A stretch of DNA of 64,000 nt from Cyanophora paradoxa CCMP329 (lineage: Eukaryota; Plantae; Glaucophyta), in NCBI GenBank assembly GCA_004431415.1, contig QPMI01000513.1, positions 1 to 64,000 on the forward strand, in the 5' to 3' direction. The position numbers and the translations under genes were made by a program. The first letter of the stretch is position 1; each line of letters begins with the position of its first letter. The notes under the pieces were generated by a model that saw only the letters and a program-made list of their open reading frames with translations, was not told the DNA's origin and ran no database searches. Of the stretch, positions 2,010-42,980 are shown one piece after another.

Positions 2010-2791
2010 ATGGCCACCGTCCGCAACGCCAACGAGATCGACCCCGCCAAGCTCGCCTCGAGATCGACGCCACCGGCCGCATCAAGGCCAAGTACGACGG
2101 CCTGCAGGGCCTCATGATGTACGCGCCGCCCATGGTCACCATCAACCCCTGCATCAACACAGAGCAAGGCAAGGCGTGGAGCGACGAGAAGAAGGCCTTC
2201 GTCATGGAAGAAAACGGCGGATTCTACACGCTGGACCTCACCGATCTCAGCGCCGTCGACGGCCAGACGAACCCCGCCGCGGACGAGTTCCTCAAGCTGC
2301 TCGAGGCCCTGGACGCGAAATTCTGCGAGTTCGTGCAGCAGAACCAGGCCAAGCTCAAGGTCTCGCCCGGCCGCTCCCTCTCCAAGGACCAGATCTCGGT
2401 GCTGCAGACCCCCAGCGTGCGCATCAAGGTCGACAAGGAGTCGGGCCAGGCCTTCTACAAGTACCTCAACATGCGCATCCGCACCCAGACGATGGCGGGC
2501 AAGCGCAAGACCATCCCCGTCGTCGACATGTCCAACTACCTCATCACCGAGCGCGCCACCATCGGCACCGGCGACCTGGTGGCCGCCCTCGTCAAAATCG
2601 ACACCGCCTACGCCATCCCCGAGGGCAAGTTCGGCCTCAAGTGGTCCTTCCTCGCCGTGCAGCAGTGCAAGGTCGGCGCCTTTCGCTTCGCAGGCCGCAC
2701 GCCCGAGCTGGCCTTCAGGCCCTACGACAACGAGGCCAGCTTCGAGCCCTACCTAAACCCCGAGTCTATGTACACAGCCCCCATGCAGTAG
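2010..2791 (+). CDS. ssDNA-binding protein, T7 gp2.5-like/NCLDV OB-fold (N-terminus frameshifted)
   Basis: Starts MATVRNANEIDPAKL. Helix EFLKLLEALDAKFCEFV and C-terminal GDLVAALVKIDTAY...GKFGLKWSFLAVQ are typical of NCLDV SSB/DUF2738-like proteins. Confidence 0.65.
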
Positions 2792-2844: not shown

Positions 2845-3648
2845 TCAAAGGCCGTTGAACTTGCCGCCCACCGCCTTGGGCTCCGCCGCCGTCGAGGCCG
2901 CCGCCTCCGTCACCTCCTTCATTACCTCCGGGTTCGCGTTCGCCGCGTGCACCGCCAGCACCGTCTGCACAAGGGCCATCCCCAGGCGCGCCTCGGGCCC
3001 CAGGGTCACGTAGCGCGAGTACTTGATCACCAGCTCCTCCAAAATCGGCTGCACCTGGTCCATCGAAGAGAGCGTCGCCTGCCCGAGCCCGTCGAGCTTC
3101 AGGCCGATCGGATCGTACGCCTTGTTCAGGTGCTCCAGCGAGTGCATGCCCGCGATCAGAAAGAGGCGCGCCGCCTCCAGCGAACCCCGCGTGCTCAGCT
3201 CGCGCTGAATCTCCTCGTACTCTTCCTTCAGCTCGTCCAGCGGCGTCGCCAGGCTCAGCTTCTTCGTGGACGTAAGCTCGCCCCCGAACGAGCGCCGGTA
3301 CTGCGCGATCTGCCGCAGAACCTGCTTCTTCTCGTCCACGTCCACCTGCGCCTCGTCCCGCGGCCGCTCCTGCAGGTCGATTCCCAGCGCCTTTTTCACG
3401 CTCTGCTCCTTTTTCTTCGTCATTTCGATGTGCTCCTGCACGCTGAAGCTCGCGCCCTTGCTCGGCGCCGTCGGCGGCACCGCGGGCCCGTCGCCCGGCA
3501 GCGCCATCCTGTCGGCCTTCGGCGCCTTCTCCCCCTTTTCCTTGCCCTCCTTCGCGGGGCGGCCCTTCTTCCGGGGCTGCGGGATTCCCACGGGGTTCGG
3601 CCCGTCCACGGCCAGCGCCTCGAAGCCAAGCATCGCCGAGGGGTCCAT
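2845..3648 (-). CDS. Conserved NCLDV-type protein (DUF5767-like)
   Basis: LEHLNKAYDPIGLKLDGLG...ILEELVIKY...GPEARL resembles the conserved NCLDV motif E.LN..FDP.GLKLDGWS...EL..KY...PE.KL. Confidence 0.6.
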   Translation of the reverse strand: MDPSAMLGFEALAVDGPNPVGIPQPRKKGRPAKEGKEKGEKAPKADRMALPGDGPAVPPTAPSKGASFSVQEHIEMTKKKEQSVKKALGIDLQERPRDEAQVDVDEKKQVLRQIAQYRRSFGGELTSTKKLSLATPLDELKEEYEEIQRELSTRGSLEAARLFLIAGMHSLEHLNKAYDPIGLKLDGLGQATLSSMDQVQPILEELVIKYSRYVTLGPEARLGMALVQTVLAVHAANANPEVMKEVTEAAASTAAEPKAVGGKFNGL

Positions 3649-5231: not shown

Positions 5232-6602
5232 CTAATGGAAGCGGCGGTAGGCGCCGCCGTTGGTGAAGGTGATCTCGTTGTAGTAGCGGCAGTAGATGTC
5301 GGCCACGGGCTTGTCCGTGCCGTAGGTCTTGAGCGTGGTGAGCGTGAGCTCGATGGTCTTGAAGGCGCCCATGTCGAGGCCGCCGAACATCTTGGTGTTG
5401 TCGGCCACGTCCGTGCCGAAGGGGAGCGAGTAGATGAACTCCGTCCCGAACTGGCCCACGTTGCGGGGCTGGATGTCGCTGCTGTGCCCGTCGTGGGTCG
5501 CAAGGGTCGTGGGGGCCGTGTCGTTGCCCGACCACGGGTGCGGGTGCAGCGCGTCGGCCACGTCGGCCGCTGCCGTCCCGTCCATCGAGGTCACGCCCCG
5601 CAGCAGCTCGAGGTGCTTGCGGGCGGGGGCGTGCGTGTGCTCCTTGTGCGCGATGGCCGTGCGCAAAAAGTGCGCGTCGTGGTTCGAGCTATCGAGCACC
5701 TTGATGTTGTCGCACTTCAGCTCGATCTTGTCGAGCGGGCGGAAGCGCCAGAAGTGCTCGCCGTTGTCGGTGTGCGGCTTGTCGCGCACCACGATGATCA
5801 GCTCGTAGCAGATTCCGGTGAAGGGCAGGCGGATGGCCTTGCCGGACTCGAACGAGACGTGGTAGTGCTGCACGTACTTGCCGGCCCACGTGAACGAGTT
5901 CGGGTGCAGCGCCAGCTCGCGCGAGTCGATGTGCACGTAGCGCAGGATGAGCTTGGTGTCCAGGCTGACGGTGCTCGTCAGGTTGGTGTTGGTGTGCAGG
6001 CCGCCGTCCACGTACGAGGCCGTGATCTCCTTCTGCGAGGCGTACGTGATCTGCAGCTTCATGTCGTTTCCGGAGCAGCGGAGCTTGTGGAGAGGCACGG
6101 CGAACTTTCGACCGTGGCCCGTCGCGATGCGAATCGGTATGTACAGCGTGTTCGAGGCCTTGCCCCGGCGGCGCAGCGGCTGGTGCGCCCAGAGGTTGTT
6201 CACCATGTCGACGTGCTGGACGACGGACTTGTCGTCCTCGAACTCGCCGTAGATGGCGTCGTAATGGCCGTCGTACTCGTGGATCAGCTGCGCGCCCACG
6301 AAGATCTTCACCTTCTTGAGCAGCACGTAGCCGGCCTTCGGGATGTAGAAGTGGTCCGCGTTCGTCAGCGCCGGCAGCGTCACCTTGAGCCAGGAGTCGT
6401 TGAACATCGGCGCCGAGTGCGGGATGACGATGTCGACGGTCTGGGCGAAGCTCACGCCCGACTGCACGGGGCTCACCTCGAGCACCTCGTCCACGAACGG
6501 CATCGCCGTGTCGAAGGTCTCGTGCACGTGCACCGACGCATCGGAGCTGCGCAGCGAGTGGTGCAGGGCGGTCGTGGGGGTGGAGATGAGCGCGGAAGCC
6601 AT
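5232..6602 (-). CDS. Major capsid protein, NCLDV-type double jelly-roll
   Basis: SFAQTVDIVIP...WLKVTLPAL...GYVLLKKVKIFVGAQLIHEYDG, LYIPI, and C-terminal GGLDM...IYCRYYNEITFTNGG match the NCLDV MCP pattern; 456 aa. Confidence 0.85.
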   Translation of the reverse strand: MASALISTPTTALHHSLRSSDASVHVHETFDTAMPFVDEVLEVSPVQSGVSFAQTVDIVIPHSAPMFNDSWLKVTLPALTNADHFYIPKAGYVLLKKVKIFVGAQLIHEYDGHYDAIYGEFEDDKSVVQHVDMVNNLWAHQPLRRRGKASNTLYIPIRIATGHGRKFAVPLHKLRCSGNDMKLQITYASQKEITASYVDGGLHTNTNLTSTVSLDTKLILRYVHIDSRELALHPNSFTWAGKYVQHYHVSFESGKAIRLPFTGICYELIIVVRDKPHTDNGEHFWRFRPLDKIELKCDNIKVLDSSNHDAHFLRTAIAHKEHTHAPARKHLELLRGVTSMDGTAAADVADALHPHPWSGNDTAPTTLATHDGHSSDIQPRNVGQFGTEFIYSLPFGTDVADNTKMFGGLDMGAFKTIELTLTTLKTYGTDKPVADIYCRYYNEITFTNGGAYRRFH

Positions 6603-10324: not shown

Positions 10325-10801
10325 TCACAGCGGATTGAGCGCGGCGTAGAGGGCGATCAGGTAGGCGTCGCAGAGGTCGTCGAGCTTGCCGTTTCGATCC
10401 GCGATGTCGGCGAGCTCGGCGGGTACGAGGTCGCGGCACTTGTCGACCGCGCCCCGCTTGCGCTCCTTGTAGCTCGGGTTCGAGATCTTGAAGAAGTGCT
10501 TGATGGCGCGCGGGCTCACGATCCGCGCACGCCCGTACAGCAGGGCGTGGAGCGTGCACTCGATGCAGCGATTGATTCCCGTCCTCTGGCCCTCGATCGC
10601 GATCTGGTCGGGAAGGCCGAAGGCGCTATGGCCGCGAGTAACCTCCACCAGGCGCGCCACAAGGCGGCCACAGCAGCGCGCAGACGGGAAGAGGGCGATC
10701 TTCTGCCAGTCGAGAATCTGGGATTCCTTTGTCTGCGGATCGAATTCGATGAGGCACCATGCGAAATTGATGACCCCCACATCCACGCCGAGGATCTTCA
10801 T
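10325..10801 (-). CDS. Holliday junction resolvase, poxvirus A22/RuvC family
   Basis: MKILGVDVGVINFAWC, IAIEGQ and KLDDLCDAYLIA give the D-E-D-D catalytic set. ATG at 10801 has ATTTTCT upstream. Confidence 0.9.
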   Translation of the reverse strand: MKILGVDVGVINFAWCLIEFDPQTKESQILDWQKIALFPSARCCGRLVARLVEVTRGHSAFGLPDQIAIEGQRTGINRCIECTLHALLYGRARIVSPRAIKHFFKISNPSYKERKRGAVDKCRDLVPAELADIADRNGKLDDLCDAYLIALYAALNPL

Positions 10802-10838: not shown

Positions 10839-11906
10839 ATGGCCAAGGACCCCAAGAAGCCGAAGAAGCCGAAGGCGGCCAAGCCCCAGCCCGCCCAGCC
10901 CGCAGGCGCGGCCCCCGCGGCACCCGCCCCCGCCGGCCAGGCCTCGGGCTCGGGCTCGGGCACCGCCCCCGCCGCCGGCGCCAGCTGCGCCATGGGCATG
11001 ACAGAGGACGGCATGCAGCTCACGCCCGAGCAGGTCAACGCCTTCCTCGACAACTCGAAGACGGGCGGCATCGAGCGCATGGCCTGCCTGCCCGAACTTA
11101 AGTGGTTCGACGTGAACACCGTCAAGCCGACGCCACCGTCGTCTGCGTGGGCAAGCGGCGCACGGGCAAGTCCTTTTTCCTTCGCGATCTCATGTTCAAC
11201 CTCTCCGGCACCTTCCCGGGGGTATCGTAATCAGCCAGACCGATCGCCTGAACGGGTACTGGAAGCAGTACATCCCGCAGCGCTTCATCTGGCCCAAGTA
11301 CAACCCGGGGTGCTCTTCCATTTATTCAGGAGGCAGCAGGCGATCATGCAGCACAACAAGTCCGAAGACGTGCTCGCGGGAAAGGAGGATCCCGTCGACC
11401 CGCGATTTTTCGTGCTGCTCGACGACGTGATTTCCGACGCTCGGCTGCGGTACGACGAGGCCCTCAACGAGCTCTTCGTGGCGGGGCGCCACTACAAAAT
11501 CATGACCCTTATCACGACGCAGTATGCCAAGGGCATCAATCCCGTCCTGCGCTCCAATACTGATCTGGCTGTCATTTTCAAGTGCTCGCAGGCGATGCAG
11601 CGCGAGGCCCTCGCAAAGGAGTGGGGCGACATCATCTCCCAGCGCGCCTTCTACTACCTGCTCGACAAGTACACCCAGGACAACCACTGTCTCATCATCG
11701 ATTCTTCCAACAACTCTACGAACCCTCTGGACGTCCTTTACGTCTACAAGGCCGAGGAGCCGCCCCCCTTCCGCATCGGATCCAAGGAGTACTGGGAGGG
11801 CGAAACCGTCAACGGAGAAAATCTCGTGGGTCCGGACGACGGCACGGTGGACAAGACGCTCCTGGGCATGATAGATAATTTCAGGAAGCACCGCGGCCTC
11901 GCCTGA
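10839..11906 (+). CDS. A32-like genome packaging ATPase (three compensating single-base deletions at 11130-11310)
   Basis: Walker A VVCVGKRRTGKS lies in an alternative frame at about 11140-11175. Walker B FVLLDD, AGRHY and TTQY are in the main frame. Confidence 0.9.
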   Translation: MAKDPKKPKKPKAAKPQPAQPAGAAPAAPAPAGQASGSGSGTAPAAGASCAMGMTEDGMQLTPEQVNAFLDNSKTGGIERMACLPELKWFDVNTVKPTPPSSAWASGARASPFSFAISCSTSPAPSRGYRNQPDRSPERVLEAVHPAALHLAQVQPGVLFHLFRRQQAIMQHNKSEDVLAGKEDPVDPRFFVLLDDVISDARLRYDEALNELFVAGRHYKIMTLITTQYAKGINPVLRSNTDLAVIFKCSQAMQREALAKEWGDIISQRAFYYLLDKYTQDNHCLIIDSSNNSTNPLDVLYVYKAEEPPPFRIGSKEYWEGETVNGENLVGPDDGTVDKTLLGMIDNFRKHRGLA

Positions 11907-12318: not shown

Positions 12319-12663
12319 ATGTCAAAGGTGCTCCTAGGGCTCTCCCAGGCTATCGTGCAGTACGCCCTCGGCCTGGCATCCGGCTCCCTCATCGACGCCG
12401 CCTTCTCCTCGCACGAAGGCGAAAACAGGACGGGCCACGCGGCCGAGCTCGCCGCGCAGGTCGCCGTCAACGGCCTCTCCCTCGGCCTGCTCTCGAAATA
12501 CGTGCTCACCCTCAAGTTTTTCGACGACGACCCCACGGGCGGAATTATGTTCATCCTCGGATTTACACACGGGCAGACGAACATGCTAATCAAGGCTACC
12601 AGCGCTAGCTTCGGAATCAAGCAGGCGCTCGAGCGGAAGGCCGCCGCGATCACTAAAGAGTAG
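12319..12663 (+). CDS. Putative membrane protein
   Basis: Several hydrophobic Gly-rich helices. Confidence 0.55.
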   Translation: MSKVLLGLSQAIVQYALGLASGSLIDAAFSSHEGENRTGHAAELAAQVAVNGLSLGLLSKYVLTLKFFDDDPTGGIMFILGFTHGQTNMLIKATSASFGIKQALERKAAAITKE

Positions 12664-13483
12664 GAAAGAAATGCCAGTCGTTGTACTCGCAGATCCTGTT
12701 CCAAATCGAATCTAACTCCGAGAGTTTCTGCCTGCTCTTGAGCAAGGGGAAAAAGGGGAGGTGCTGGGGCAAATCTAGCAGCACGAAAATCTGCCTGAAT
12801 ACGTAATTGTAGTTGAGCATGTTCTTCCTGCCCTGCGACTTGAACATGCTGAAGGGGACCTCCACCAGGGCGAACATCTCCTGCACCCGGTCCATATCCT
12901 CCGCGCTCATCGGAGGCGGGCGCTCGCCCGTGATGCGCCACTTGATCTGCGCCCAGCGCTCGATGTACTTCTGCTGCTTCAGAGCCCGGAGAACTTGGCG
13001 GATATTGTCTTTGCTCCACTCCTTCCCCGCCATGCGCCTCGCAATAGCTGCCAGCACGTCCTCGGGTACTGGAGAATCCTCCAGGCAGTGCTGCTTAAGT
13101 CGCTCGGAAACGTGGTACTTGCGCAGGTAGTTGCTGTGGAGCTCGCTGACAGCCAGGGGTTGATGGTCCGGATAATAAAAATCCAGGACCAGACCGCAGC
13201 TTTGGCAAACCAGATCCCCATCCAGGTGAACACCAACGAGGGCGGTAGAGCCGCAATTTCCGCAGGGGACAGCGGCTTCGCCTTGGGGGCCTTGCGTGCG
13301 GCGGTTGCGCTTGCGGGGGCGCTCTCCGGCCTTGAGGTAGGAGTTGGCGATGGCGGCGGCGGCGGCGGGGAACGGTGCCGGAGTGTCGAAGTCTGGGTCC
13401 CCCTCGTCGTGAAGGATGGCTCCGTAGCGCTGGATCTGCTCAAAGTTTCGGAGGAGGAGATCGATTTCGCCAGAGTCTGCCAT
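12653..13483 (-). CDS. Late transcription factor VLTF3 (poxvirus A2L-like)
   Basis: Zn ribbon CGNC...VCQSCG, YLRKYHVSE, RKNMLNYNYVFRQI, FPLLKSRQKL...DSIWNRIC...WHFFPTL. Confidence 0.93.
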   Translation of the reverse strand: MADSGEIDLLLRNFEQIQRYGAILHDEGDPDFDTPAPFPAAAAAIANSYLKAGERPRKRNRRTQGPQGEAAVPCGNCGSTALVGVHLDGDLVCQSCGLVLDFYYPDHQPLAVSELHSNYLRKYHVSERLKQHCLEDSPVPEDVLAAIARRMAGKEWSKDNIRQVLRALKQQKYIERWAQIKWRITGERPPPMSAEDMDRVQEMFALVEVPFSMFKSQGRKNMLNYNYVFRQIFVLLDLPQHLPFFPLLKSRQKLSELDSIWNRICEYNDWHFFPTL

Positions 13484-13714: not shown

Positions 13715-14557
13715 ATGCTCAACCTCATCGCGAGGGGCGTAGCAGCAAACAGGCAAGCCCGGGCACCGAACCCGCACCTCCGCATGGACGCCTCCGGCCG
13801 CTCCCGGGTAGAGACTCACATCGTAGTGGGCAACATCAACGACAAGGTGCTGGCACCCGACAAGACGTGGTTCCAGAAGGTGCTGGACGCGGCGCCCGTG
13901 AGGAAACTGAACGGGGAGGATCGGCCGCAGCGCGAGTCGAATTTCATGATCACCATCCAGACCAACTACAAGCCGCGGAGCAGGGGAGAGGGCTCCAAGG
14001 TGCAGGACGCGTTTCACAGGGGGCTGGAGGCCCTCTTCTACGACGACAGGCAGCTGGCGCGGTGCATAAAGATGGGGGTGTACCCCGACAAGGCGAACCC
14101 CAAGGGCTTCGATTTCAAGTCCGACCAGTACGACACGCACGTGGAGAGGGGCAACGCGAACATCGGCATCGAGTACGGGCCGCGGTCGGGGCGGCTCCAC
14201 GCGCACATCCTGCTCACGCTGGTGCACTACTCGCGCGTGCAATTCGACGGCAAGCGGGCGTCGGATTTCCTCATCAAGTTCATGCAAACGGAGGGACAGG
14301 GCGGCCTGCCGAATTTCTACAAGGACGACTGGTTCGGGGAGGAGTACCAGAAGACGGCGGTGCGGCCGATACGGAGAAAGGACGCCCTCGGCATGCAGTG
14401 GACGGGCAAGGAGACGGGCTACAGGAAGCGAGAAACCGCCAGGCAGATGCACGTAGACGTAAAATTGCTGCCGCAGAGCAACCTTAAGGATCTGCTGCAG
14501 CTGTACATTACGAAGACGGTAGAGGCCCTCGAGACGGGCGCTGTAAAGCTCGTGTAA
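13715..14557 (+). CDS. HUH (rolling-circle Rep-like) endonuclease 1
   Basis: Motif I SNFMITIQTN, motif II IEYGPRSGRLHAHILL, motif III LQLYITK. AAAATTTTCT about 15 nt upstream of the ATG at 13715. Confidence 0.8.
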   Translation: MLNLIARGVAANRQARAPNPHLRMDASGRSRVETHIVVGNINDKVLAPDKTWFQKVLDAAPVRKLNGEDRPQRESNFMITIQTNYKPRSRGEGSKVQDAFHRGLEALFYDDRQLARCIKMGVYPDKANPKGFDFKSDQYDTHVERGNANIGIEYGPRSGRLHAHILLTLVHYSRVQFDGKRASDFLIKFMQTEGQGGLPNFYKDDWFGEEYQKTAVRPIRRKDALGMQWTGKETGYRKRETARQMHVDVKLLPQSNLKDLLQLYITKTVEALETGAVKLV

Positions 14558-14580
14558 ATTTTTTCTCGTGTCCAATAAAT

Positions 14581-16610
14581 ATGCCTCCGAAGCGCCGAGG
14601 CCGCAAGAAGAAGCCAGAGAGCTCGAGCGAGTCAGAGGAAGAGGAGCCCACGTCCCCGTCCTCCGAGTCGGAGGAAGAAGAGGAGGAAGAGGAAGAGGAG
14701 CCGGAGCCTAAGCCGAAGGGCAAGGGCAAGGGGAAGGGAAAGGGAAAGGCAAAGGGAAACGCGCCCGATACCGGCGTGGACGAGCTCGAGACGCCCGTCG
14801 TTGAGATTCCGAAGCGATACGTGCTGGTGCAGGGCGAGGATGGCATATTCCAGCAGCAGAAGAGCATATCCGATTACATCAAGCTCTCGGCCACCAAAGA
14901 AGTTCAGATGCTCCCATCGCTGCTCGATAAATCATACCACGAGCCCGCAACCCTCTGGAGCATCCACAGCGAAATCGAGTACGATAAACTCCCCGAGGAG
15001 CGACTGCGCGCCATACCGCGCACGTACCAGAGCGCGCAGAAATCGCCGCCGATCTGCTACCGCTGCCTTCGCCTCATGTACGAGGCCACGCCCGTGCCGA
15101 GCGCCAAGGGGGCCAACACGCCAGAGAAAATCGCCGCGAGGGAGGCAGCGCAGGCGAGGAAGGATGCCGTGTACGAAGAGTACATTGCAGTCATAGAGAA
15201 GGCAAACGCGTGGGCAGCCAAGCAAAACGGCAAGGGAAAGAAAAAGGGCCAGGAGCCGTACCCCCTCATCAAGGACAAGAAGCCGGCGCAGGTGCCCACG
15301 GTGTCGCCCAGAAACTCGTGGCTCTGCCAGAAGTGCGTCACGCTGCTCGGCAACAAGGGCCTGCTCGTGATCTTGGGCCTGCAGAGGCGAAAGAGGGGCG
15401 ACACGGCCACCGTCTCCAAGCAGACGCGCGACCACATGGTCGAGAGCGTGCTCGGCGGGCCGAAGCCAAAGACCACGAAAAAGGCAAAGGATACGGCCGC
15501 TGACTTCGGATCGTCCGTCATCGAGCCCAACTCCGCACAGTCGAAAATCAGAAAGGCGAAAATCGTGGCGCCGAGCATGGAAGATTTAATGGCAACCTTC
15601 GCGGACGCGCAAGAGGTGAAGCAGAACATAGAGAAGGCGAAAACGGGACTGCAGGCGGCGCAGGCAAACGGGCTGGAGGCGCTCGAGAAGGTGATCACGG
15701 AAATCAGCGAGACGGGGCGGTCGGTCTTCATCCTCAACAAAAAGAATCCCGACGGAAGCACGCGGTACGACATACGACAGGCGCGCCAGTCGCGCTACTG
15801 GGTGCTCTTCAACACACACAAGCGCCTGGGAGAGGCGCGAGAATTCGAGGCGGCGGCGCTGCGCGACAGCCTCGCAGAGGTGCTCTCGGACGCAGAATTC
15901 TACAAGTTCATCCGCTTCAATTTGAAGGAGGAGAACGGCAAGTACAAGGACGACACGTACGCCAACGCAATCATCGGAATTCGCGTGCAAGGGGGCGTGG
16001 AGGTGGGGCCGACGGACGGGGCGCTGCACGCCCACGTGCTGGTGACGATCGATCACATATCGAACCTGCAGGTGCTGTGGGCGAATTACGACTGGGTGGT
16101 GCTGCTCAAGGAGAAGGAGCCGGGCACCACGACGGTGTACGAGCGGCTGCACCAAATTCTGTCCGCGAAATTCACGGCGGCCGGGCAGCGCCTCGTAGAC
16201 CAGAAGAGGCAGAGGCAGGACCTCAGCCGAGCATCGATACGATGGTGGAAATTGCAGAGCTCGAGCGCATGCTGACGGAAGAGAAGATAGGCATGGGGAA
16301 AGATCCGCCCACCGTCCTTGCGTCGCTGATTCCGGAGGAAAATTACGCGAGCAAGCTGCAGGAGTACCTCTCGAAGACGCTGCCCGACAAGCAGAGGCGC
16401 GATTTACTGAAAGAGTGGTCGCACGCGCGAAACACGAACAACACCGACAACAACACGGACGGGTACCTCTTCACGATTTTCCAGGCGGACGCCGGCCAGG
16501 CGGACGACCCCCGCTTTGCGCCGCAGGCCGCGGAAATCGGCGATCTGAGGGCCAGGGGCCGAGGGCGCGGAAAGGGCAAGGGGCGCGGAAGGGGCAGGGG
16601 TAGCGGGTAA
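14581..16610 (+). CDS. HUH endonuclease 2 with acidic/KG-rich N-terminus, Zn finger and RG tail (frameshift near 16200)
   Basis: Motif I SRYWVLFNTH, motif II VEVGPTDGALHAHVLV, motif III LIPEENYASKLQEYLSK in the 16077-16610 frame, which aligns with LLPQSNLKDLLQLYITK of HUH1. Also CYRC...CQKC. Confidence 0.75.
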
Positions 16611-27816: not shown

Positions 27817-28629
27817 ATGCCGACCACCTCGGCCACCATCGTGAAGACCGTGTCTGCCGGCTCGATCGTCCCCGATTTCTACGGCAACGCTGGGAACGTG
27901 GCCAACGCAGGGACGGACAAGGTGGAGTGGGACGGAAACTACGCCACCCCGCTCACCGTGAGGGTCCAGAATCCCGTCATGTTGCGCGTCACCTCCAACG
28001 ATTTCGAGAATCCCGCCTCCTGCTCCGTGTACGTGTACTTTGACATCGACTCGGGCGTGAGCGCGGATGAGGCGGAGGCGCTCTGGCTCTCGGGCCTCCT
28101 GAAAAAGATAGAACCCTCTGTGCCTGATCGGCCCGCCATTCGCGTGCTCGAACTCAAGTTCACCGCTAACACCGCCCTCACTCGCAAATTTGCGAATGGT
28201 GCGAATCCGAACATCAAAACGCATTTAGATGGCGCCCTCATCGATGCCACACACAAGACCACGCAGGCCGTTCCCTTTGAGATGTACAACCTCTGGAAGA
28301 TGACCGCAAAGGAGATGATGACGAATGCCACCACGGGCGGCGCCTCGGGTACCGATTATTCATACGGCGCCTCGAATCCCCGTACCCAGGTCTGGCCCCG
28401 GCTCCTCTTCACGAAATTCACTTTCAAATTGTACAACAACATCGCCGGAATGCCTACCTCTGGAATGGTCGTGGGCTCTACCCTCATGGCCGAACTAATT
28501 GAGGCAGAGGCGGACTACACGATTGCGACTACCAACTCGACAGCGCCAGGCGCCGGAGCCGAAGTTTACGTGGCCTGGGAAACGGTCGGTCGCGAGTACG
28601 ACACCAAGATTCACACCACTAGCGTCTAG
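27817..28629 (+). CDS. Hypothetical protein, paralog B
   Basis: Shared motifs as for paralog A; TCTTTCT motif upstream. Confidence 0.7.
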   Translation: MPTTSATIVKTVSAGSIVPDFYGNAGNVANAGTDKVEWDGNYATPLTVRVQNPVMLRVTSNDFENPASCSVYVYFDIDSGVSADEAEALWLSGLLKKIEPSVPDRPAIRVLELKFTANTALTRKFANGANPNIKTHLDGALIDATHKTTQAVPFEMYNLWKMTAKEMMTNATTGGASGTDYSYGASNPRTQVWPRLLFTKFTFKLYNNIAGMPTSGMVVGSTLMAELIEAEADYTIATTNSTAPGAGAEVYVAWETVGREYDTKIHTTSV

Positions 28630-28984
28630 ACTGGCTAAGCTGCATTAGTGCCTGCGCCGCCTCCATCATCTCCGCAATCTCTTCGCTCTTCTCCCGCAGG
28701 CTTGTACCCTCCCTCTTCTTCTTCTGGATCTCCGACATCGATACCCAGCGCAGGTTTTCCCTCCTGTAGTCCAGCGGGTTGCCGTTGATGTGCTCCACGT
28801 ACAGTCCACGTGGCGGCTTCCCGAGGATGAGCTGGGAGAGGTAGTGCTTGCGCCTTCCAAATGTCTTCGTCACCCTGCCCCTGTCCAGTCGCCAGGGAAA
28901 CTCCATCGCACTCCGGGGTACGTCCGAGTTGACCAGGACGTTGTAGGGCAGGTCGCAGGAGTCGGTGCACTTGAGCAGGGCCAT
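28619..28984 (-). CDS. HNH homing-endonuclease-like protein
   Basis: VEHINGNPLDYRRENLRWVS, compared with canonical DHINGN.LDNR..NLR; the substitutions may inactivate it. Confidence 0.75.
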   Translation of the reverse strand: MALLKCTDSCDLPYNVLVNSDVPRSAMEFPWRLDRGRVTKTFGRRKHYLSQLILGKPPRGLYVEHINGNPLDYRRENLRWVSMSEIQKKKREGTSLREKSEEIAEMMEAAQALMQLSQSRR

Positions 28985-29471: not shown

Positions 29472-30338
29472 GCTCGCTTGGGGGTAGCCCCCACCAATTG
29501 CGCGACCTTCCCGCGACCATTTTCAATAAGCACATTTTCAGCATCACGAATCTCAGTCACAAAATCACAAATTCGCACTGAGCCACATTGTATTTTTCAA
29601 ACATCTAACCCTTCCTTACTGAAACCAATCACGAAACCCTTTCATTCTTCATTTTTCTAATTCCTTACCATTCCCAGTAAGCCCTTTAACTTTCCCCGAT
29701 CTCTCAGTAAGGACAGTAAGACCCTCATTTTTACGAAATGTTCCCGATCGTTTCCGGACTGTTTTCAGTTACCCAAATTGAAAAATCAAGGTGAGCCCAC
29801 CAATTAAACAAGTGATCCCCACTTAAAGCAGTTAATATACTGTAACAATGGCAAGCAATCAAGTAAATTTACCTGAGAGTAAGCGGTGCAATGTTTGCGA
29901 TAAGGTAAAACCGGCATCGAGTTATGCATTGCAAAAGCGTAGCTCAGGGAATGTACTTTTGAATTGGAGATGCAAAGACTGCGACCGAGAGTATCACAAT
30001 TACCTTTATCATTGTGTGTTAAAAACGCGTCCGAAGATCGAAGTACAATCGAAGATATGCTCGCACTGCAAGATTGAGAAGCTTGCAAGTGAGTTTAATA
30101 AAAGACAAAGAACGAAGGATGGTCTCAACTACCAATGCCGAGAGTGTTATAGCAAAACACGTAAGAGTTAAACCGAATTTCATTTTATATTTTTTAAAGC
30201 AAGTTTGTGCATGAGCAAGCATGCCGAAAATGCCCACCTGCACAAACTTGCGAGATCAAGGTAAGCCCCACCGACAAAGTACGACGATAGACCACGTTAA
30301 AATAAACTCGCGCCCCGCCCACTATGCAAGATACATGC
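29472..30338 (+). repeat. Left terminal inverted repeat (867 bp)
   Basis: Reverse complement of 53557-54425; the only differences noticed are two C-run length changes. Confidence 0.97.
29848..30171 (+). CDS. TIR-encoded protein with two CxxC...CxxC zinc-binding repeats
   Basis: KRCNVC...CKDC and KICSHC...KDGLNYQCREC; identical copy at 53724-54047. Confidence 0.7.
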   Translation: MASNQVNLPESKRCNVCDKVKPASSYALQKRSSGNVLLNWRCKDCDREYHNYLYHCVLKTRPKIEVQSKICSHCKIEKLASEFNKRQRTKDGLNYQCRECYSKTRKS

Positions 30339-30388
30339 AAACAACATGCGAGATACATATATAAATTGTTTTTCTCTTCCTATAATAA

Positions 30389-31198
30389 ATGAAGACTCAC
30401 TTTTACCATAAATATACCGGCAACAAGTATAATGAAATGAATACGATCTATCCATATATCGATTTAGAAGGAATTAATAAAGTTATAGAACCGTTTTGTG
30501 GTTCAGGTGCTTGTAGTTTCTATCTTTGGGAAAAGCATAAAGACCGGTTTGATTATTATATGAATGATAACGACGAAACCCATACCCTTTTTTTGAATAC
30601 AATGAAAGACCCAGACAATAAAGTTAAACTCTTAGAGAGTCTTAAACAGTTCGAAGCAGTTAGCAATATAGAAGAGCACAAAGAAGTCTATAAGAAGTTT
30701 CTACAACATGATCGTAAAGATGCAATGGATTACTTAGCTCACCATTTCTATCTTCTTAAAAACAGCATTTTAAATGTTAAAACCCTCCGTGATTTCAAAA
30801 AACGAAACGTAAAGGTGAGTCCATATACAACTCTTAAAAATAAGATACCTTACGATGATTTCATAAAAGAAGTCAACCTATCCCATGGGGATTTTCGCGA
30901 TATCTTAGCGAAATATAGAGATGACGAAGCGGCTTTTATATTTCTCGATCCTCCATACGTAAACAGCAATAATGACTTTTACGAAAATGTAGAATTCGAT
31001 TTAGAAACCTTCTTTTTGGATTTGGAAGACCTATTTAAGACAGCGAAATGCAAGGTTATGATGGTTGTAAATGATGCTCTTTTAATGAAACTACTATTTA
31101 AACCCTATATTCGCCATACGTATGGCAAAGTGTATGGTATGACAAAAAAGAAAAGAAACCATCTCATTATGACTAACTATGAACTTGGTGAAAAATAG
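30389..31198 (+). CDS. DNA N6-adenine methyltransferase, Dam/D12 class
   Basis: Motif I IEPFCGSGA and motif IV FIFLDPPY. Confidence 0.92.
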   Translation: MKTHFYHKYTGNKYNEMNTIYPYIDLEGINKVIEPFCGSGACSFYLWEKHKDRFDYYMNDNDETHTLFLNTMKDPDNKVKLLESLKQFEAVSNIEEHKEVYKKFLQHDRKDAMDYLAHHFYLLKNSILNVKTLRDFKKRNVKVSPYTTLKNKIPYDDFIKEVNLSHGDFRDILAKYRDDEAAFIFLDPPYVNSNNDFYENVEFDLETFFLDLEDLFKTAKCKVMMVVNDALLMKLLFKPYIRHTYGKVYGMTKKKRNHLIMTNYELGEK

Positions 31199-31229
31199 AG
31201 TAATTAAAATATTTGTTAAATAATTAATA

Positions 31230-31622
31230 ATGGATTCCCGATACCGCGGCTACCACGTTATGCTCGACTATATAACCGACCCGTTTACTGAGTCCCCGGA
31301 GGCATGCGCCGAGTGGATCACAGCGAACCTATCGCAATATATCACAGATCGCAATATGCGCATCGTGCACCAGCACACATGCATTTTCGATGGCTCTATT
31401 TCCCCTCCCGGTTTCGCGATTGGCTTTCTATTAGATGAGTCGCATGCCACAGCTCACTCTTATAGCGACCAGGGGCTATTAGCGATCGATATCTTTACAT
31501 GCGGCTCAAATGCCGAAGCGAAGACAATGGGTATAGCACAGGACATTAACGATCTCATACAGGAAAGGCTGAAAGTGCGAAAGTGGGACTTACAGGTCGA
31601 GCAAAGGTTCCCAATTTCATAA
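31230..31622 (+). CDS. speD: S-adenosylmethionine decarboxylase proenzyme (prokaryotic class 1B type)
   Basis: LLDESHATAHSY self-cleavage ES site and AIDIFTCG. Confidence 0.9.
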   Translation: MDSRYRGYHVMLDYITDPFTESPEACAEWITANLSQYITDRNMRIVHQHTCIFDGSISPPGFAIGFLLDESHATAHSYSDQGLLAIDIFTCGSNAEAKTMGIAQDINDLIQERLKVRKWDLQVEQRFPIS

Positions 31623-31647
31623 AAAATGAAAAAAACGACAGATATAT

Positions 31648-31962
31648 TTAATGCTCCTTGATCGGAAACTTGCCCATTAGCGGGTGATCGAGACCCATGA
31701 CATACCAGGATTTCATAACGGGATCCCAGCGGGCTTTCTCAGCCTTCGCTTGATCCTTAAATTCATAAGGAATATCGAGGTAAACCTTCAAGTTTCTTTG
31801 ATACACTTGCTCATAGCTTAGAGTCTTGAACTGAGAGCATAGAGAGTGATCTTTCTTCGTGACATACCAGCATGAATTCTCACGATCCCACTTTCCACCG
31901 AGGGATTTCGCAACGTCTTTTTTATCAAACGGAATATCCACGAAATGCTTTTCACCCTCCAT
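31648..31962 (-). CDS. Tandem DUF5710-like domain protein
   Basis: Two copies of DIP(F/Y)..KD.AK....WD.....WYV. Confidence 0.75.
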   Translation of the reverse strand: MEGEKHFVDIPFDKKDVAKSLGGKWDRENSCWYVTKKDHSLCSQFKTLSYEQVYQRNLKVYLDIPYEFKDQAKAEKARWDPVMKSWYVMGLDHPLMGKFPIKEH

Positions 31963-32001
31963 CTCTTTTATATTTACCGGAGAAAATAATTTCGGGGTTT
32001 G

Positions 32002-33381
32002 TTATGAACGAGAAGACCGAAGAATGCGCGTAGTAGGGGCTGTGTAGCTTGCGCTCTGATTCTTGAATGATTTATACCACCGCTGACTGTTTACCTCTGA
32101 GAGCTTCTCAGTGCCGGCAATCGTTAATTTCGCGAGCTCTCTAAGCGCCCTCTTAGTCTTCTCCGCGCGATCTTCCAATAATGCGCCTTTCGGAACACTT
32201 GCGGCGACATCTATGCCTTCTTTTTGAACCTGCCGGATAGAAGCGGCTTCCATTTCGGCTGCTTTGATTGCGTTGCCTGATGGTTCCACCACAGCTTCGA
32301 CCTCTGTAATGATCTGCAATTCGTGCGGCTTAAAAAGCTTCGGCATTACGTTCCCCGCTGCATCTTGCACCTCTATCGCGTTTCCTCTCCTTCCCGCAAT
32401 TTTGTAGACCTCTCTGCTATACCTTTGTGTTGCTCCTTTATCAAACTTTGATCTCGGCAATAATACACGGACGTGGAGACCCGGCTTAAAGTCGCTGAAT
32501 ATATCCTTTACGATTGTGTTCTTCTTTGAAATAATAGCCGCTCGGATCCGCTCCATATCAGAAAGCTTAACATCTGCGGGTTTCATTCCTATGGTTCTGT
32601 GAATGGTGTTATTATAATTGAAAACGAAGTCGTCCAATTTGTCCATGAATCGAACTGTATTATAAGCGACACAGTAATTGTTTATCATCGTTTTTAAGGT
32701 CAAATGAAAGCGATTCATTATTCCAGAGAAGTGTGATCTCCGACCTGTTTAAAGCGGTGTTCTATTCCATTATTTTTAACGACCTCCTGAAACTCCTTCG
32801 CGATGAATTCCGAACCGTTATCTGTCTCCAATCGAATCATCGGAGCCGGGAGCTCTGTGAGCATCTCCGCAAAAGCGGCGGCAACACTTGCGCCCTCCTT
32901 ATTCTTTAACTTCTTGGCATATGCTTTTCGGCTTGTCATCTCGATGAGAGTAAGGACTGCAATGTAGCCGGAATTATAATTGCCATATGAGAGATAAAAG
33001 ATGAGATCCGCTTGATAGCACCACGGCGGGGCTGTGATGGGAATAAAAGCTGTTTGGGTCGGTGCTGGGGCTTCTTGTTGATCTGCATAAATTCTTGTTT
33101 CGCTGCGACATCTTGCACTTCTTTCAATGTGAGGCTCTTGTCCTCTTTTCTCAGCTCTTCGTACAATGCCGATGGGTTCTTAAAACCTGTCTTTGGGTCA
33201 TACATGCGGCGCACGATCTTAGAGGACGGGTTAGCAATGCTAAAAGGAACATCTCCTAATAAATTTGATTTTGCTTGGCGTTTTGTGATTTTTTGGGGAC
33301 TTGCTCAGTTTCAGGAACCGCGATAGGTAGTATGGTGGTCTCTGTCTCCTCGCCCGCTACCCTTCTAACGATCCGTGACAT
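32002..33381 (-). CDS. Retroviral-like (rve) integrase, three single-base frameshifts
   Basis: YDPKTGF N-domain; YQADL (D1), ETDNGSEF (D2), HTSL(G)IMNRFHLTLK, YNNTIHRTIGMKP and FDKG...YSREVY. Shifts at about 33290, 33040 and 32722 fall in short base runs. Confidence 0.88.
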
Positions 33382-33399
33382 TCTTCTAATTAAACCTGT

Positions 33400-36300
33400 T
33401 TATTTTTTGCTGCAATTGCACCCGTGATGCACGAGCTGGCAATTGTCTTTAAGATGTGGGCGCCTGTTGTTTATGCGATCCACGACGAGCTTGTAATTCG
33501 GATCTTGTGGCTCAGTCGGAATAGGAAGGGAACAGAGCGCACAGGCGCCCTTCTGTTGCTTCTTGCGCTCTAATATCCACTCCGGCGTAATATAATCCGC
33601 CTCATCGAAATCGCGCCCGGCACGCTGATCCTGGCATTTGTAACCGCGGATCTTCCCTTTCAGATACTCGATGTAGTCACTCTTTCCTTGGAACTTGTGA
33701 ATCGGTGTATAAATCAGCACAGTAGACAGATCGCGGTTACGAGTGAGCGCGGTATAGAACCATTCGCGAGTGGTATAGCGGAACGTAGCCTCACAAATGA
33801 CAATGCCCGAATCAAGTGTGAGACCTTGCGTTGAATGACCTGTTCCTGCATAAGGGAGAGAAAAATGTTCTAACATCGCGCACGGAACCTCAAACGTGAC
33901 ACCATCGAAAACGTCCGTTAATGTGACCATTTGCTTTGTGATTTTGGTGATTCGATAGGTGTAATTCGTGTATGCGTTTATAGACTCGCCCTCAGACCGC
34001 GAAATGCGTAGATACTTGCGGCAAACGACTTCCAAACCCTTGTAGAATTTGATGCCATTGACCTCTACGGTTGGGATATTTACTTTGCGTCTATCGTGCA
34101 TCAGTTTGTTGTAGGCTAAGGTCATTTCGTTTCTGTAAGCGATGCCAAAGTAGCCGTCGGGAATAGCGCTTAGATCATTAATTGTCGGCAACCCGTATTT
34201 CGAGATAATCTGTGCGGCTTCCAGTCCGTTCTCGAAGAGATCCTCTTTAATCGCCCGAATTAATTCACGGTCTGTCTCCTTCTTGTGCCGCTTGTTATTG
34301 CGTAGACTCAGAACGTTAGGGAACATACTCTGCACCGCGCGCTTATAGTAGCCCTTGCGATCAGAAACCGAGAGCTCGTCATTAATTGGTTCATTTTGAT
34401 AGGTGTCGCCATTAGCCAAATATTTGATATCCGGATAGCGATCGATAAACGACTTGATCTTAGCGAGATCTTTTACGGAATACGCGAATATCTCGTCGAA
34501 CATAATGTGACTGAACTCGGAGACGAACGCCCTCTGGTCTTTTTCGCTCATAGCCTCTTCGTAGGTCTGATCATTTGAGACACGGATCCCGAGAACATTA
34601 TATAAAGTACGAACGGTAATATTCTCGATTCCGCGGACTTTGAGAGAGTCCCTCAGCTCCGCGCACTGTTTGTTATAGGGGCAAATAACTAAGCAATTCG
34701 ACTTTTGAGATGCGAAACAGTTAATACCGAGTGTCGACTTTCCACTTCCGGGCATGTCAGCAAGGACAAGCATACGATTATGGAGCTTCGCAACCCAATT
34801 AAAGCACTCCGGATTAAATTCGTCCCTCAGCGAGAACCGGTTAATGAGTGTCTCGGGATCCTGAAATTCGAGAGTTACACCCCGCGGTGGGCGGAGTGCA
34901 TTCTCAGGGCATCTTTTCCCGGGAATATAGCTGAATTTGCCCATGTTCTCAAACGCATTTCGGTCGAACTCTTTCTTACTTGTCCATGAACCTTCGATAT
35001 ATAGGCAATCCGTTCTGATTCCGGCAACCTTGTGCCCGCGCGCTGTCAGGCGCTTGTATTGCGCAAACATATTAGCACGGTTGCGATCGTAAATATGAAA
35101 GTGGATAGGAAGGAATCCGTTAACGAGCTCGCGGTGGGAGCTGATCTTAACGAAATAGATGTGACCTTCGAATTCGCTAAGAGTTTTGACACGTTTCGAA
35201 TTCTTAGGATTGAAAGTAAACACCTCTACTGTTCCTCCGCATTCTTGGGCGAACCTCTCAGCCTCGGCACGGTTGTAGAACATTTTCGTGGATGTTTGCG
35301 AGTCTTGGAATTTGCCGAGCATTCCGATCTCTTTCACTAAAATGTGCTTCTTATCTGTGGTTTGAATGTCACTTGAAAGTACTTTCTTCATCTCCGAGAT
35401 CGACGTATTGGGCACCAAATGCGAAGGCTCCGCGACCGCGATAATCTCTATCTTGTCCTTTACGTCCGCCCAGTGCATGGAGAGAGTGTAGCCTGTCATG
35501 AAATTATAACAGCGACCACTCACGGAAAATGCGCGATCCAGAATAATTTCGATTCCATCAATCTTGCGAGACATGGCGGCATCATAATCTACATCCTCAT
35601 CGTCGGCGAAAGTCGCTTGCTCTCTCTCAAACGCAACGACACGCACGTAGTAGATCGCGTATTCGAGAATATCGCTTCCCGCTTTAAAGGGAACGAAGTC
35701 ATCAAACACATTGTATTTCGGAAGATATTGCATGCCTTTCAGTATCGAAGGGTAGCACTTCGCCATATCGACAGCTGTGTAGGTGGCTTTCGGGTTCGGC
35801 TTATAGAAAAAGCCACTTAGTGCGGATCGCTTGTAGTGCGTGAGAATTTCGCGCATGTTCGGGCTGTAATGTGAGATATTCGTCGCATTTAGAAGCGACT
35901 CCCGGAATCCCTTCCCGATTTCACAGACCTTATTATAATACTCCTCTGTTTCGAAATCTTGCTCAATAAAGTGGTCTGTTGTGCGTGGATCTTTGATAGA
36001 GAACATCGAGCCATTGGCTTTGAATGTGATGCTGTCGATCTGTTTCGATGGTGTTAGCTTCACAGCGGGCTCATATCGCATTTTCAGGAACGTAAATAGA
36101 AGACCTTCCAGACCTTCGCGCCCAGTATAAAGAATGCGGATGAAACTGCGCTCGTCGGGCGATAGTTTAAGTTGCGTGATCTTTAACAAATCCTTGGATG
36201 TGTGCGCGAAGATATCGTGAGTAAGACACGTCGGAATTTTATAGAGTGCTAACGAAGAGGTCGACTTAGGAACATGATTATCGAGCTCTTCGACCTCCAT

Positions 36301-37716: not shown

Positions 37717-37885
37717 CTCTATTAGTTCTTTTAAAATAACCGGAGAAAATAATTTCGGCGCAATCTACCAAATTCTCCTTTTCATACCCTTGTCGCCAAT
37801 TCTTTAAGTGCTTTTTTGACGGATGCGGGGAATAAAAAGAGAGTTAAAAAATTAATCATTTTTTGCATCGTGCGGATACTTTCCG

Positions 37886-38299
37886 CTACGAAGTTTTTGC
37901 GTTCTCGACGACATGCTTTCGGGGTCTTCCAGCGGGCTTTTGCGGCTGGGGCTTCACCGGCGGATTCAGCTTTCGTTCCGCTCTTTTCCTTCGTTGGTAT
38001 TCACGTGCCTTCTCTCGGATTTTCTCCCGATACTCTTCATCGTCTTGGTATCGCTGCTGTTTACGAATTGCAATCTTTTGTAGCTGTTCCGGGGTGAATA
38101 TCGTAGCCTCTCCGGCGGCTAATCGCTCCTGTTTCTGTCTCTGATGCTTGTTTCGCTGCCGCTCGGCGTCTTTTTCGCGTTTTAATCTTAATCTCTCCGC
38201 CTTCTCCTCTTCTGAAATCACCTTTTTCGGTCGCCCGGGTCTGCGCTTTTCCTGCTGTGCCGCCATCGCCTCTTGGTTTGAAATCTTGGGTTTCGCCAT
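37886..38299 (-). CDS. Basic DNA-binding protein with two AT-hook-like motifs
   Basis: RRPGRPKK and AGRPRK flank an R/K/E/Q coiled coil; TATTTTCTCCGG upstream. Confidence 0.7.
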   Translation of the reverse strand: MAKPKISNQEAMAAQQEKRRPGRPKKVISEEEKAERLRLKREKDAERQRNKHQRQKQERLAAGEATIFTPEQLQKIAIRKQQRYQDDEEYREKIREKAREYQRRKRAERKLNPPVKPQPQKPAGRPRKHVVENAKTS

Positions 38300-38423
38300 T
38301 TACTATAACCGGAGAAAATAGTTTTTTGTCACTCTGTATTATTTCCCTTGCCCTTAAATACCTTTTACCGAAACCTTCAATTTTTGCCCTTGGCTCGATA
38401 CAAGCGCCACCGAAATTCACCGC

Positions 38424-38864
38424 TCAATAACCGTTCCAGACGGTTCTTTCTTGTTGCTGAGGATATACATAAGGTTGCTGAGGATAAACATAAGGGTTCG
38501 TTACATTTTCATCGTCGCCTAATGCCATTTGATCCAATCTATACATCGGATAAGGGGAGTCAGCGCGCAAATGACCTTCTACAAACTCAGGACATGAGCG
38601 CCTTCTAATATGCTCTACATGCACGTCCTCTATCTGAGCGGTTTCGATATTGGAACTCATAGCCGCGGTCACAGGCGAGGGCGATCGAGATCGTGGGTGG
38701 TTGTGATTGTCGCTGTGGTTAGAATATACAGAAAGGCGCCTACCTCCATTATCCTCGCCATCTGATATTTCGATTTCTACGGTTGTGTCACAGCATGGAC
38801 TGTGGCAATTAGACACGACATGAAGCTGAAACATCTCAATGCATTGTGTGATGAAATTCATCAA
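38424..38864 (-). CDS. Hypothetical protein
   Basis: 146-aa ORF with a PYVYPQQ duplication; TATTTTCT upstream. Confidence 0.5.
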   Translation of the reverse strand: MMNFITQCIEMFQLHVVSNCHSPCCDTTVEIEISDGEDNGGRRLSVYSNHSDNHNHPRSRSPSPVTAAMSSNIETAQIEDVHVEHIRRRSCPEFVEGHLRADSPYPMYRLDQMALGDDENVTNPYVYPQQPYVYPQQQERTVWNGY

Positions 38865-39749: not shown

Positions 39750-39751
39750 GA

Positions 39752-42964: not shown

Positions 42965-42980
42965 CTTACTATAATAGATT

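What the first reader, a model, noticed from the sequence alone, without database searches (positions are those of the whole stretch)
13715..16610. Two tandem HUH rolling-circle endonucleases in an endogenised NCLDV-like virus with no visible integrase
Seen: both ORFs have Rep motifs I, II (E.G...G.LHAH) and III (Y..K). The second adds an acidic/KG N-terminus, a Zn finger and an RG tail. They sit beside VLTF3, A22 RuvC, A32 ATPase, SSB and an NCLDV-type MCP. Established: HUH + VLTF3 + RuvC + SSB without PolB typifies mriyaviruses, which are proposed to use rolling-circle replication. Inference: one paralog may initiate replication while the other resolves or integrates the genome (as AAV Rep or Helitron/replitron transposases do), explaining endogenisation without a DDE or tyrosine integrase.
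Basis: partly seen in the sequence, partly recalled or inferred. Interest (0 to 1): 0.82.

Follow-up and report, generated by a model that had tools for sequence, protein, structure and literature searches.

The report
Integrase-less dwarf virus, twin nicking enzymes
The two neighbouring genes are the already published twin DNA-nicking genes of dwarf relatives of giant viruses, likely used to copy the viral genome, here in a virus family present in dozens of near-identical copies in an alga's genome; how it inserts remains unproven, as no integrase is in the visible part but its left end lies outside the window.

Summary
Real, but the pair is known. 13715-14557 and 14581-16610 are HUH and HUH_long of 'Gamadviridae' (Mriyaviricetes; Yutin 2024): catalytic E/H/H/Y/K conserved, same order in 9 of 9 viral contigs. 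The long gene is split in the window, most likely by an assembly error; its N-terminus is about 390 aa, against 1,300-1,900 aa in gamadviruses. Host: the glaucophyte Cyanophora paradoxa; gene models on at least 34 contigs, many 95-99% identical. A 25-kb polinton-like virus with its own rve integrase, 869-bp inverted repeats and a 6-bp duplication is nested inside the element. The element resumes after it and meets single-copy host DNA at about 57032 in 4 of 4 runs, after a hairpin-rich end with no sign of a long terminal repeat. No integrase, helicase or polymerase was found in the 32 kb held, but the left end is outside the window. Best reading: both enzymes serve rolling-circle replication. 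HUH-driven integration stays open (about 0.3) against host repair, an unseen integrase, or a borrowed one. New member of a known kind, with a testable open question.

The parts
13715..14557 (+). Short HUH endonuclease (280 aa), mriyavirus HUH
   Evidence: Motifs conserved; AlphaFold pLDDT 78; IS200-type transposase Z 6.9, TrwC relaxase Z 5.9
14581..16610 (+). HUH_long paralog (676 aa in sister copies): acidic/basic N-terminus, 4-Cys motif, C-terminal HUH domain, RG tail; split near 16207 in the window
12653..13483 (-). VLTF3 late transcription factor
   Evidence: PF04947 E 2e-24; 33-40% to gamadvirus loci
10839..11906 (+). Packaging ATPase (frame broken in the window; Walker A in another frame near 11150)
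   Evidence: 45-49% to 3 of 3 gamadvirus records
10325..10795 (-). A22/RuvC-like resolvase
   Evidence: PF04848 E 3e-7; 2 of 3 gamadvirus records
5232..6602 (-). Major capsid protein, NCLDV type, divergent
   Evidence: PF16903 E 3e-8; no match in 3 gamadvirus records, 2 of which hold a capsid gene
2010..2791 (+). SSB-like gene shared with gamadviruses (the SSB label is inferred from the paper's gene set; no fold test here)
   Evidence: 33-36% to 3 of 3 gamadvirus records; no PDB sequence match
2845..3648 (-). DUF5767 protein conserved in gamadviruses
28619..28984 (-). HNH endonuclease
   Evidence: PF13392 E 3e-8
29472..54425 (.). Nested polinton-like virus (24,954 bp, 44% GC) with 869-bp terminal inverted repeats and a 6-bp target duplication (29466-29471 and 54426-54431)
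32002..33304 (-). rve integrase of the nested virus (in three frames in the window)
   Evidence: PF00665 E 2.3e-14
54432..57032 (.). Right arm of the mriyavirus-like element, resuming after the nested virus
   Evidence: Multicopy depth like the left part; shared CCAAGC-type arrays
56933..56953 (.). Perfect 8-bp stem, 5-nt loop, 79 nt before the junction; candidate origin or end signal
   Evidence: 10 of 1000 shuffles of the last 130 nt do as well; end region folding z -3.7
57027..57033 (.). Right junction with single-copy host DNA (last base shared with other copies at or before 57032; reads CA then TATATA)
   Evidence: Single-copy contig starts at 57003 in 4 of 4 runs
59057..59857 (-). Host protein-kinase-like gene split by introns (flank marker)
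   Evidence: weak Pkinase hits, E 3e-4 and 0.02; single-copy depth

Best explanation
These are the paired HUH endonuclease genes of a gamadvirus-like mriyavirus that sits in tens of copies in the Cyanophora paradoxa genome, and both enzymes likely serve rolling-circle replication of the viral genome rather than integration as a dedicated job. Shown: two paralogous HUH domains with intact metal-binding and tyrosine motifs, conserved as an ordered pair; a multicopy family; a right junction with host DNA. Inferred mechanism: each protein has one catalytic tyrosine, so the pair would supply the two tyrosines that single Y2 initiators use (recalled, phiX174 A type). One nicks the origin and stays bound to the 5' end while host polymerase displaces the strand; the other, with its Zn-type motif and basic tails, would bind the origin and cut and seal the unit-length strand. 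SSB would coat the displaced strand and RuvC would resolve branched products. Insertion into the host is likely a by-product of these nicked, protein-linked ends, either by the same strand-transfer chemistry or by host repair.
For: Published description of HUH plus HUH_long as adjacent gamadvirus genes (PMC11253617). Same order and strand in 9 of 9 IMG/VR contigs, and adjacent gene numbers on 14 of 14 host contigs that name both genes. The long paralog groups with gamadvirus HUH_long, 96/88 (0.86). Catalytic residues conserved and kept in 14 of 15 short and 13 of 17 long gene models. No polymerase found in the part held. No tyrosine recombinase or rve in 3 gamadvirus records searched, which keep the pair anyway.
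Against: No activity, origin or nick site is shown; the split of roles is analogy only. Structure support is middling: best HUH-family Z 6.9, tied with an unrelated adenovirus protein at 7.1, and no Foldseek hit at E <= 0.001. A local duplication is not formally rejected (p-AU 0.063). No helicase was found in the 32 kb held. The capsid protein did not match gamadvirus records and the short HUH falls outside the gamadvirus short clade, so family membership is loose. Tens of young copies are more than pure accident would suggest.
Confidence: 0.6

Rival explanations
1. One HUH paralog is a true integrase or transposase: it cuts at a fixed end and transfers the viral strand into AT-rich host DNA, as IS200/IS605, IS91, Helitron and Replitron enzymes do, and this made the many copies.
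For: Gene models on at least 34 contigs, short HUH 94.6-99.6% and main long type 99.5-99.7% identical. Depth ratios of 63, 43 and 29 to single-copy flank in three runs. Sharp right junction in 4 of 4 runs, in a non-coding, hairpin-rich end. Terminal depth about equal to internal depth, so no sign of a long terminal repeat. No integrase in 244 frames. Y1 transposases recur among structural matches.
Against: Only one junction of one copy is known; the data cannot tell a fixed terminus from a random break (a continuing contig would share only 30 bases). The pair is conserved in viral contigs with no sign of integration. Six such hairpins occur in the 32 kb held. Depth is not copy number. The structural likeness to Y1 transposases is expected of any minimal HUH domain.
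Confidence: 0.3
2. The element integrates with a conventional integrase, either encoded in the unseen left arm or supplied in trans by the rve integrase of the co-resident polinton-like virus family.
For: About 32 kb are held against 35-45 kb for mriyaviruses, and the helicase is also missing from view. Mriyavirus-like groups carry rve (57-62%) or tyrosine recombinase (60%) genes (bioRxiv 10.64898/2026.06.19.733378). The end reads CA followed by six shared bases, which fits an rve-type 3' end plus a 6-bp target (the CA rule is recalled). An rve-bearing virus sits inside this copy.
Against: The same preprint says integration genes are absent in mriyaviruses proper; none was found in 3 gamadvirus records. 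No long inverted repeat is evident at the end. The nested virus ends in GC, not CA, so its integrase uses different ends.
Confidence: 0.3
3. Insertions are accidental: host end-joining captured viral DNA during nuclear replication, and copies then multiplied by repeated infection, concatemer capture or host duplication.
For: This is the published default for Nucleocytoviricota inserts lacking mobility genes (bioRxiv 10.1101/2025.04.19.649669, section 11). Two HUH_long subtypes (67-70% identical) recombine with two short subtypes, as repeated infection would give.
Against: The junction lies in a non-coding structured stretch rather than inside a gene; copies look complete and intact; tens of near-identical copies would need a very high accident rate.
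Confidence: 0.3

Closest known systems
'Gamadviridae' (Mriyaviricetes) HUH and HUH_long, e.g. Pleurochrysis sp. endemic virus 2 genes 11 and 10 (Yutin et al. 2024, PMC11253617)
   Same: Adjacent short HUH and long protein with a C-terminal HUH domain, both predicted active; VLTF3, ATPase, RuvC, SSB-like gene, NCLDV-type capsid protein; no polymerase in view.
   Different: HUH_long is 676 aa with a 4-Cys motif and RG tail, against about 1,600-2,100-aa frames in the nine viral contigs; gene order is rearranged; the capsid protein is divergent; freshwater glaucophyte host; tens of integrated copies.
Endogenous Mriyaviricetes regions in a Glaucocystophyceae assembly (bioRxiv 10.1101/2025.04.19.649669) and Phaglo-G in Phaeocystis (bioRxiv 10.1101/2022.07.28.501842)
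   Same: Integrated dwarf NCLDV-like viruses of about 61% GC in algal genomes; the glaucophyte report may concern this very family.
   Different: The passages read give no termini, copy number, HUH analysis or integration mechanism.
HUH transposons: IS200/IS605 TnpA, IS91, Helitrons, Replitrons (PMC10288648)
   Same: Single-tyrosine HUH chemistry; hairpins near ends; no long terminal inverted repeats; Y1 transposases among the structural matches.
   Different: Those elements are small and non-viral; no fixed ends, target rule or transposition is shown here.
Polinton-like viruses with rve integrase, including Cyanophora PLVs (PMC12220804)
   Same: Describes the nested 25-kb element: terminal inverted repeats, 6-bp duplication, rve, A32 ATPase.
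   Different: It is a separate virus inserted into the mriyavirus, not part of it.

Membership tests
HUH endonuclease superfamily | HUH metal-binding motif on a beta strand | tested here: met
   H162/H164 invariant in 93 sequences, on strand 161-171; H483/H485 in the long paralog
HUH endonuclease superfamily | Catalytic Tyr motif (YxxK) on a C-terminal helix | tested here: met
   Y264/K267 on helix 257-266; Y596/K599 on helix 589-598
HUH endonuclease superfamily | RRM/ferredoxin-like Rep fold | tested here: inconclusive
   Fold type fits and HUH proteins rank high (2ec2 Z 6.9, rmsd 4.2, 121 aligned; TrwC 5.9; TraI 5.2), but unrelated ferredoxin folds score alike
HUH endonuclease superfamily | ssDNA nicking and joining activity | not testable with these tools
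   Needs biochemistry
Mriyaviricetes | MCP, ATPase, VLTF3, RuvC, HUH | tested here: met
Mriyaviricetes | No DNA or RNA polymerase | tested here: inconclusive
   None in 244 frames over the 32 kb held; left arm unseen
Mriyaviricetes | SF2 or SF3 helicase (55 of 60 genomes) | tested here: inconclusive
   No Pfam hit or Walker A candidate besides the ATPase; left arm unseen
Mriyaviricetes | 35-45 kb genome | tested here: inconclusive
   At least 32,072 bp held
Mriyaviricetes | Placement in MCP/ATPase phylogeny | not tested
   No MCP or ATPase tree was built; ATPase 45-49% to gamadvirus records, MCP unmatched
'Gamadviridae' | Duplicated HUH (HUH plus HUH_long) | tested here: met
   Same order as 9 of 9 viral contigs; long with long 96/88
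'Gamadviridae' | Family-specific genes (SSB/PEV_26 and others) | tested here: inconclusive
   SSB-like gene, DUF5767 and the 3881-5152 gene are shared; the other PEV genes, VLTF2 and PDDEXK were not identified
HUH transposon (Helitron/Replitron/IS91-like) | Fixed ends shared by copies, with a target rule and no or atypical target duplication | not testable with these tools
   One right junction only; no host genome held
Polinton-like virus (nested element) | Terminal inverted repeats, target duplication, rve integrase, A32 ATPase | tested here: met

The most novel reading that the evidence does not exclude
A 35-45 kb relative of giant viruses has colonised a glaucophyte genome in tens of intact copies by using one of its two HUH enzymes as an integrase, a 'viral Helitron'. 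It would be the first member of Nucleocytoviricota shown to integrate by single-strand transfer, and it is itself a landing site for a polinton-like virus.
Probability: 0.27. Interest if true: 0.85.

Novelty: new member of a known kind. Interest (0 to 1): 0.45.

Why it matters
The twin genes themselves are in print. What matters is the setting. Mriyaviruses are reported to lack integration genes, yet this family stands in tens of near-identical, catalytically intact copies in a cultured alga with public long-read data. Aligning the two ends of these copies would directly decide how such viruses enter genomes, an open question, and a compact 676-aa HUH_long makes the biochemistry of the pair tractable. 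A polinton-like virus nested in a mriyavirus also suggests a possible parasite-helper relation between two small nuclear DNA viruses.

Tried and rejected
No whole genome is held, so the left end and other copies' flanks could not be read. Pfam knows neither HUH protein; a PDB sequence search gave nothing useful. ESM Atlas: weak lead only for the short protein (a REP_ORF2-G2P cluster at 0.91, family on 24% of members, low recognition) and no hit for the HUH_long N-terminus. No close relatives in viral contigs (HUH, capsid, VLTF3, 17-base end pattern) or JGI metagenomes. A search for fused gene models reaching left of position 1 returned one 247-aa model with no new gene. A heterodimer prediction of the two HUH domains gave no verdict. 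No run is on record as RNA; one guessed-RNA run has low-depth contigs over parts of both genes, not used as evidence. Stems of 8 bp or more lie within 500 nt of 5 of 8 gamadvirus contig ends (one of 20 bp in L008), but these need not be genome ends and the test is loose. A VIA search of the HUH_long model was not run. The first IQ-TREE run did not finish. Rejected: the long gene is a pseudogene (reads and sister copies say otherwise); the low-GC region is host DNA (it is a nested virus); the element ends at about 29 kb (it resumes at 54432); the junction is an assembly chimera (4 of 4 runs span it).

Full report
1. The observation. The window holds a 280-aa ORF at 13715-14557 and, 23 bases later, a second gene at 14581-16610, both on the + strand. 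They are paralogs over the HUH core (26% identity, 108 aa, E 3e-8). A profile-free HMMER search of 1.84 billion representatives gave 151 relatives at E <= 0.001 (150 listed), in a short class of about 170-300 aa and a long class of about 1,500-1,900 aa matched at the C-terminus. I aligned the window protein, 3 close relatives and 89 of those rows, chosen by length and leaving out most long proteins and fragments: E153, H162, H164 and H171 are invariant, Y264 and K267 at least 90% conserved. A 75-row alignment on the long paralog gives E474, H483, H485, Y596, K599. AlphaFold models the short protein at pLDDT 78 as an RRM-like sheet with the histidines on one strand and the tyrosine on a late helix; the HUH domain of the long protein is confident, its N-terminus mostly not. 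Structure searches are supportive but not decisive: the Sulfolobus IS200-type transposase 2ec2 scores Z 6.9 (rmsd 4.2, 121 aligned, tyrosine helix included), TrwC 5.9 and TraI 5.2, but adenovirus 4djb ties at 7.1; Foldseek lists ISDra2, IS608 and IS200 transposases only at E 0.02-0.15. The assignment rests on motifs plus fold type.

2. One correction. In the window the long gene is split: motif III and the RG tail are in another frame. The single contig covering 16207 in each of 3 DNA runs has one more base, as at many other homopolymer runs in this window, and 676-aa copies exist in the same host (P0059, P0215, P0220). An assembly error is the likely cause; contigs can drop rare variants, so a private lesion is not fully excluded.

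3. What it is. Yutin et al. [quoted passage not shown] I fetched 9 viral contigs with a gamadvirus-type HUH_long alignment: 9 of 9 have the short HUH directly upstream of the long one on the same strand, as here. In a 37-row tree (182 columns) the window-type long proteins group with gamadvirus HUH_long at 96/88; forcing them together with the window-type short proteins costs 10.4 log units, p-AU 0.063, so a local duplication is disfavoured, not rejected, and both branches are long (FastTree on 141 of 150 rows gave the same pairing at 0.86). A distant short and a distant long relative each come from an 8,181-base Logan contig, probably the same one. Shared with gamadviruses are VLTF3 (33-40%), ATPase (45-49%, 3 of 3 records), the SSB-like gene (33-36%, 3 of 3), RuvC (27-29%, 2 of 3) and DUF5767. 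The capsid protein hits Pfam Capsid_N but none of 3 records, 2 of which hold a capsid gene. I therefore call it a divergent gamadvirus-like mriyavirus; I built no capsid tree.

4. Host and copy number. Accessions name Cyanophora paradoxa. From the gene names shown, the short gene is on 26 contigs, the long on 22, either on 34; on 14 of 14 contigs with both, the numbers are consecutive. Motifs II and III are kept in 14 of 15 short and 13 of 17 long models (3 lack motif III, the window's among them; 1 is a short-gene fragment). Ten short copies are 94.6-99.6% identical to the window's; four long copies are 99.5-99.7% identical to P0059 and four of a second type 67-70%. Contig depth over the element is 63, 43 and 29 times the flank in three runs; the tool warns that this is not a copy number, so I say only 'tens'. 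Mriyavirus regions in a glaucophyte assembly are already reported, and Nucleocytoviricota inserts without mobility genes are there read as mainly accidental (bioRxiv 10.1101/2025.04.19.649669; passages and section 11; its supplements were not seen and may hold more on this family).

5. GC falls from 61% to 44% at 29.5 kb. 29472-54425 is bounded by 869-bp inverted repeats (99.8%) and a 6-bp duplication, CCAAGC, and encodes an rve integrase (E 2.3e-14), an A32 ATPase and a 1,438-aa protein with an SF1 helicase end and polymerase-like motifs (the motifs are recalled, not confirmed by Pfam). It is a polinton-like virus inserted into a short repeat array of the mriyavirus. The mriyavirus resumes at 54432 at multicopy depth and drops to a single-copy contig that starts at 57003 in 4 of 4 runs and runs on through an intron-split kinase-like gene. 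With 31-base words this puts the last base shared with other copies at or before 57032. The last 460 bases are non-coding and fold better than shuffles (z -3.7), with a perfect 8-bp stem at 56933-56953 (10 of 1000 shuffles; but 6 such stems in the 32 kb held). The two end variants listed sum to 72 and 41 times the flank, like internal depth, so there is no sign of a long terminal repeat. At position 1 the sequence is still viral (the upstream motif of 882-930 recurs at 1-52), so the left end is outside the window. No integrase, recombinase, helicase or polymerase family was found in 244 stop-to-stop frames of 70 aa or more covering the mriyavirus part and its edges; Pfam also misses the HUH proteins, so this is not proof.

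6. How it most likely works. Because the ordered pair is kept in viral contigs in which I found no integrase (0 of 3 records searched for tyrosine recombinase and rve; 6 of 9 loci were not searchable), its main job is most simply replication. I commit to a division of labour at the origin: two single-tyrosine enzymes standing in for one two-tyrosine initiator, one nicking and one terminating, with host polymerase, viral SSB and RuvC (inference; about 0.6 for both serving replication, lower for the exact split). The route into the host genome is a separate question and is unresolved, about evenly shared: HUH strand transfer (0.3), a conventional integrase unseen on the left or borrowed (0.3), host repair with later spread (0.3). 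The junction reads CA then TATATA, which fits both an AT-rich HUH target and an rve-type end with a 6-bp target. A 2026 preprint notes that integration genes are absent in mriyaviruses but common in their nearest relatives (10.64898/2026.06.19.733378; passages). Replitrons show that HUH enzymes can transpose in algae (PMC10288648; passages).

7. Novelty. The tandem HUH pair is known, and so is the presence of mriyavirus regions and of polinton-like viruses in this host group (PMC12220804; passages). In nine literature searches and the passages read (also 10.1101/2022.07.28.501842 and PMC13768754; term searches in PMC10120064 and PMC12480563 returned nothing) I found no proposal or test of HUH-mediated integration of mriyaviruses, no description of their integrated ends, and no polinton-like virus nested in one; subscription papers are not covered. 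Verdict: new member of a known kind, interest 0.45, with a bolder reading (integration by single-strand transfer) at about 0.27 that one alignment of element ends would settle.

Noticed in passing
window 29472-54425: A complete-looking polinton-like virus is nested in the mriyavirus, in a CCAAGC-type repeat array; its own terminus also contains CCAAGC. Possible targeting of mriyavirus copies, or a virophage-like relation between the two.
   Followed up: partly
window 29010-29471 with 54432-54475: Two arms of about 100 bp in inverted orientation flank a 311-bp spacer with repeated CTTTTTTACTCGTAGT-type units; a third array lies at 56572-56650. Candidate origin or promoter module.
   Followed up: partly
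window 14581-16610 and P0060, P0223, P0225, P0226: Two HUH_long subtypes coexist in the host (N-terminus 59%, HUH domain 80% identical) and pair with either short-HUH subtype, suggesting recombination among copies.
   Followed up: partly
window 56002-56573: A 183-aa ORF region at only 1.4-1.9 times single-copy depth inside the multicopy right arm; most copies have other sequence here.
   Followed up: no
window 24216-25907: The tail-fibre-like and fn3 gene region has about a tenth of the family depth: a variable receptor-binding cassette.
   Followed up: no
window 28633-29096: One run has a contig that goes back 464 bases here, implying a tandem HNH cassette in some copies.
   Followed up: no
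window 33400-37716: 1,438-aa protein of the nested virus with polymerase-like motifs fused to an SF1 helicase.
   Followed up: no
window 30389-31622 and 43833-45326: The nested virus carries a D12 adenine methyltransferase, an S-adenosylmethionine decarboxylase and a patatin-like phospholipase.
   Followed up: no
L008, last 80 bases: A perfect 20-bp stem lies 77 nt from the end of this gamadvirus contig.
   Followed up: no
window 1-2100, 11100-11280, 19278-19459, 55236-55349: Many single-base homopolymer errors break viral genes in the assembly; apparent pseudogenes in this window should not be taken at face value.
   Followed up: partly
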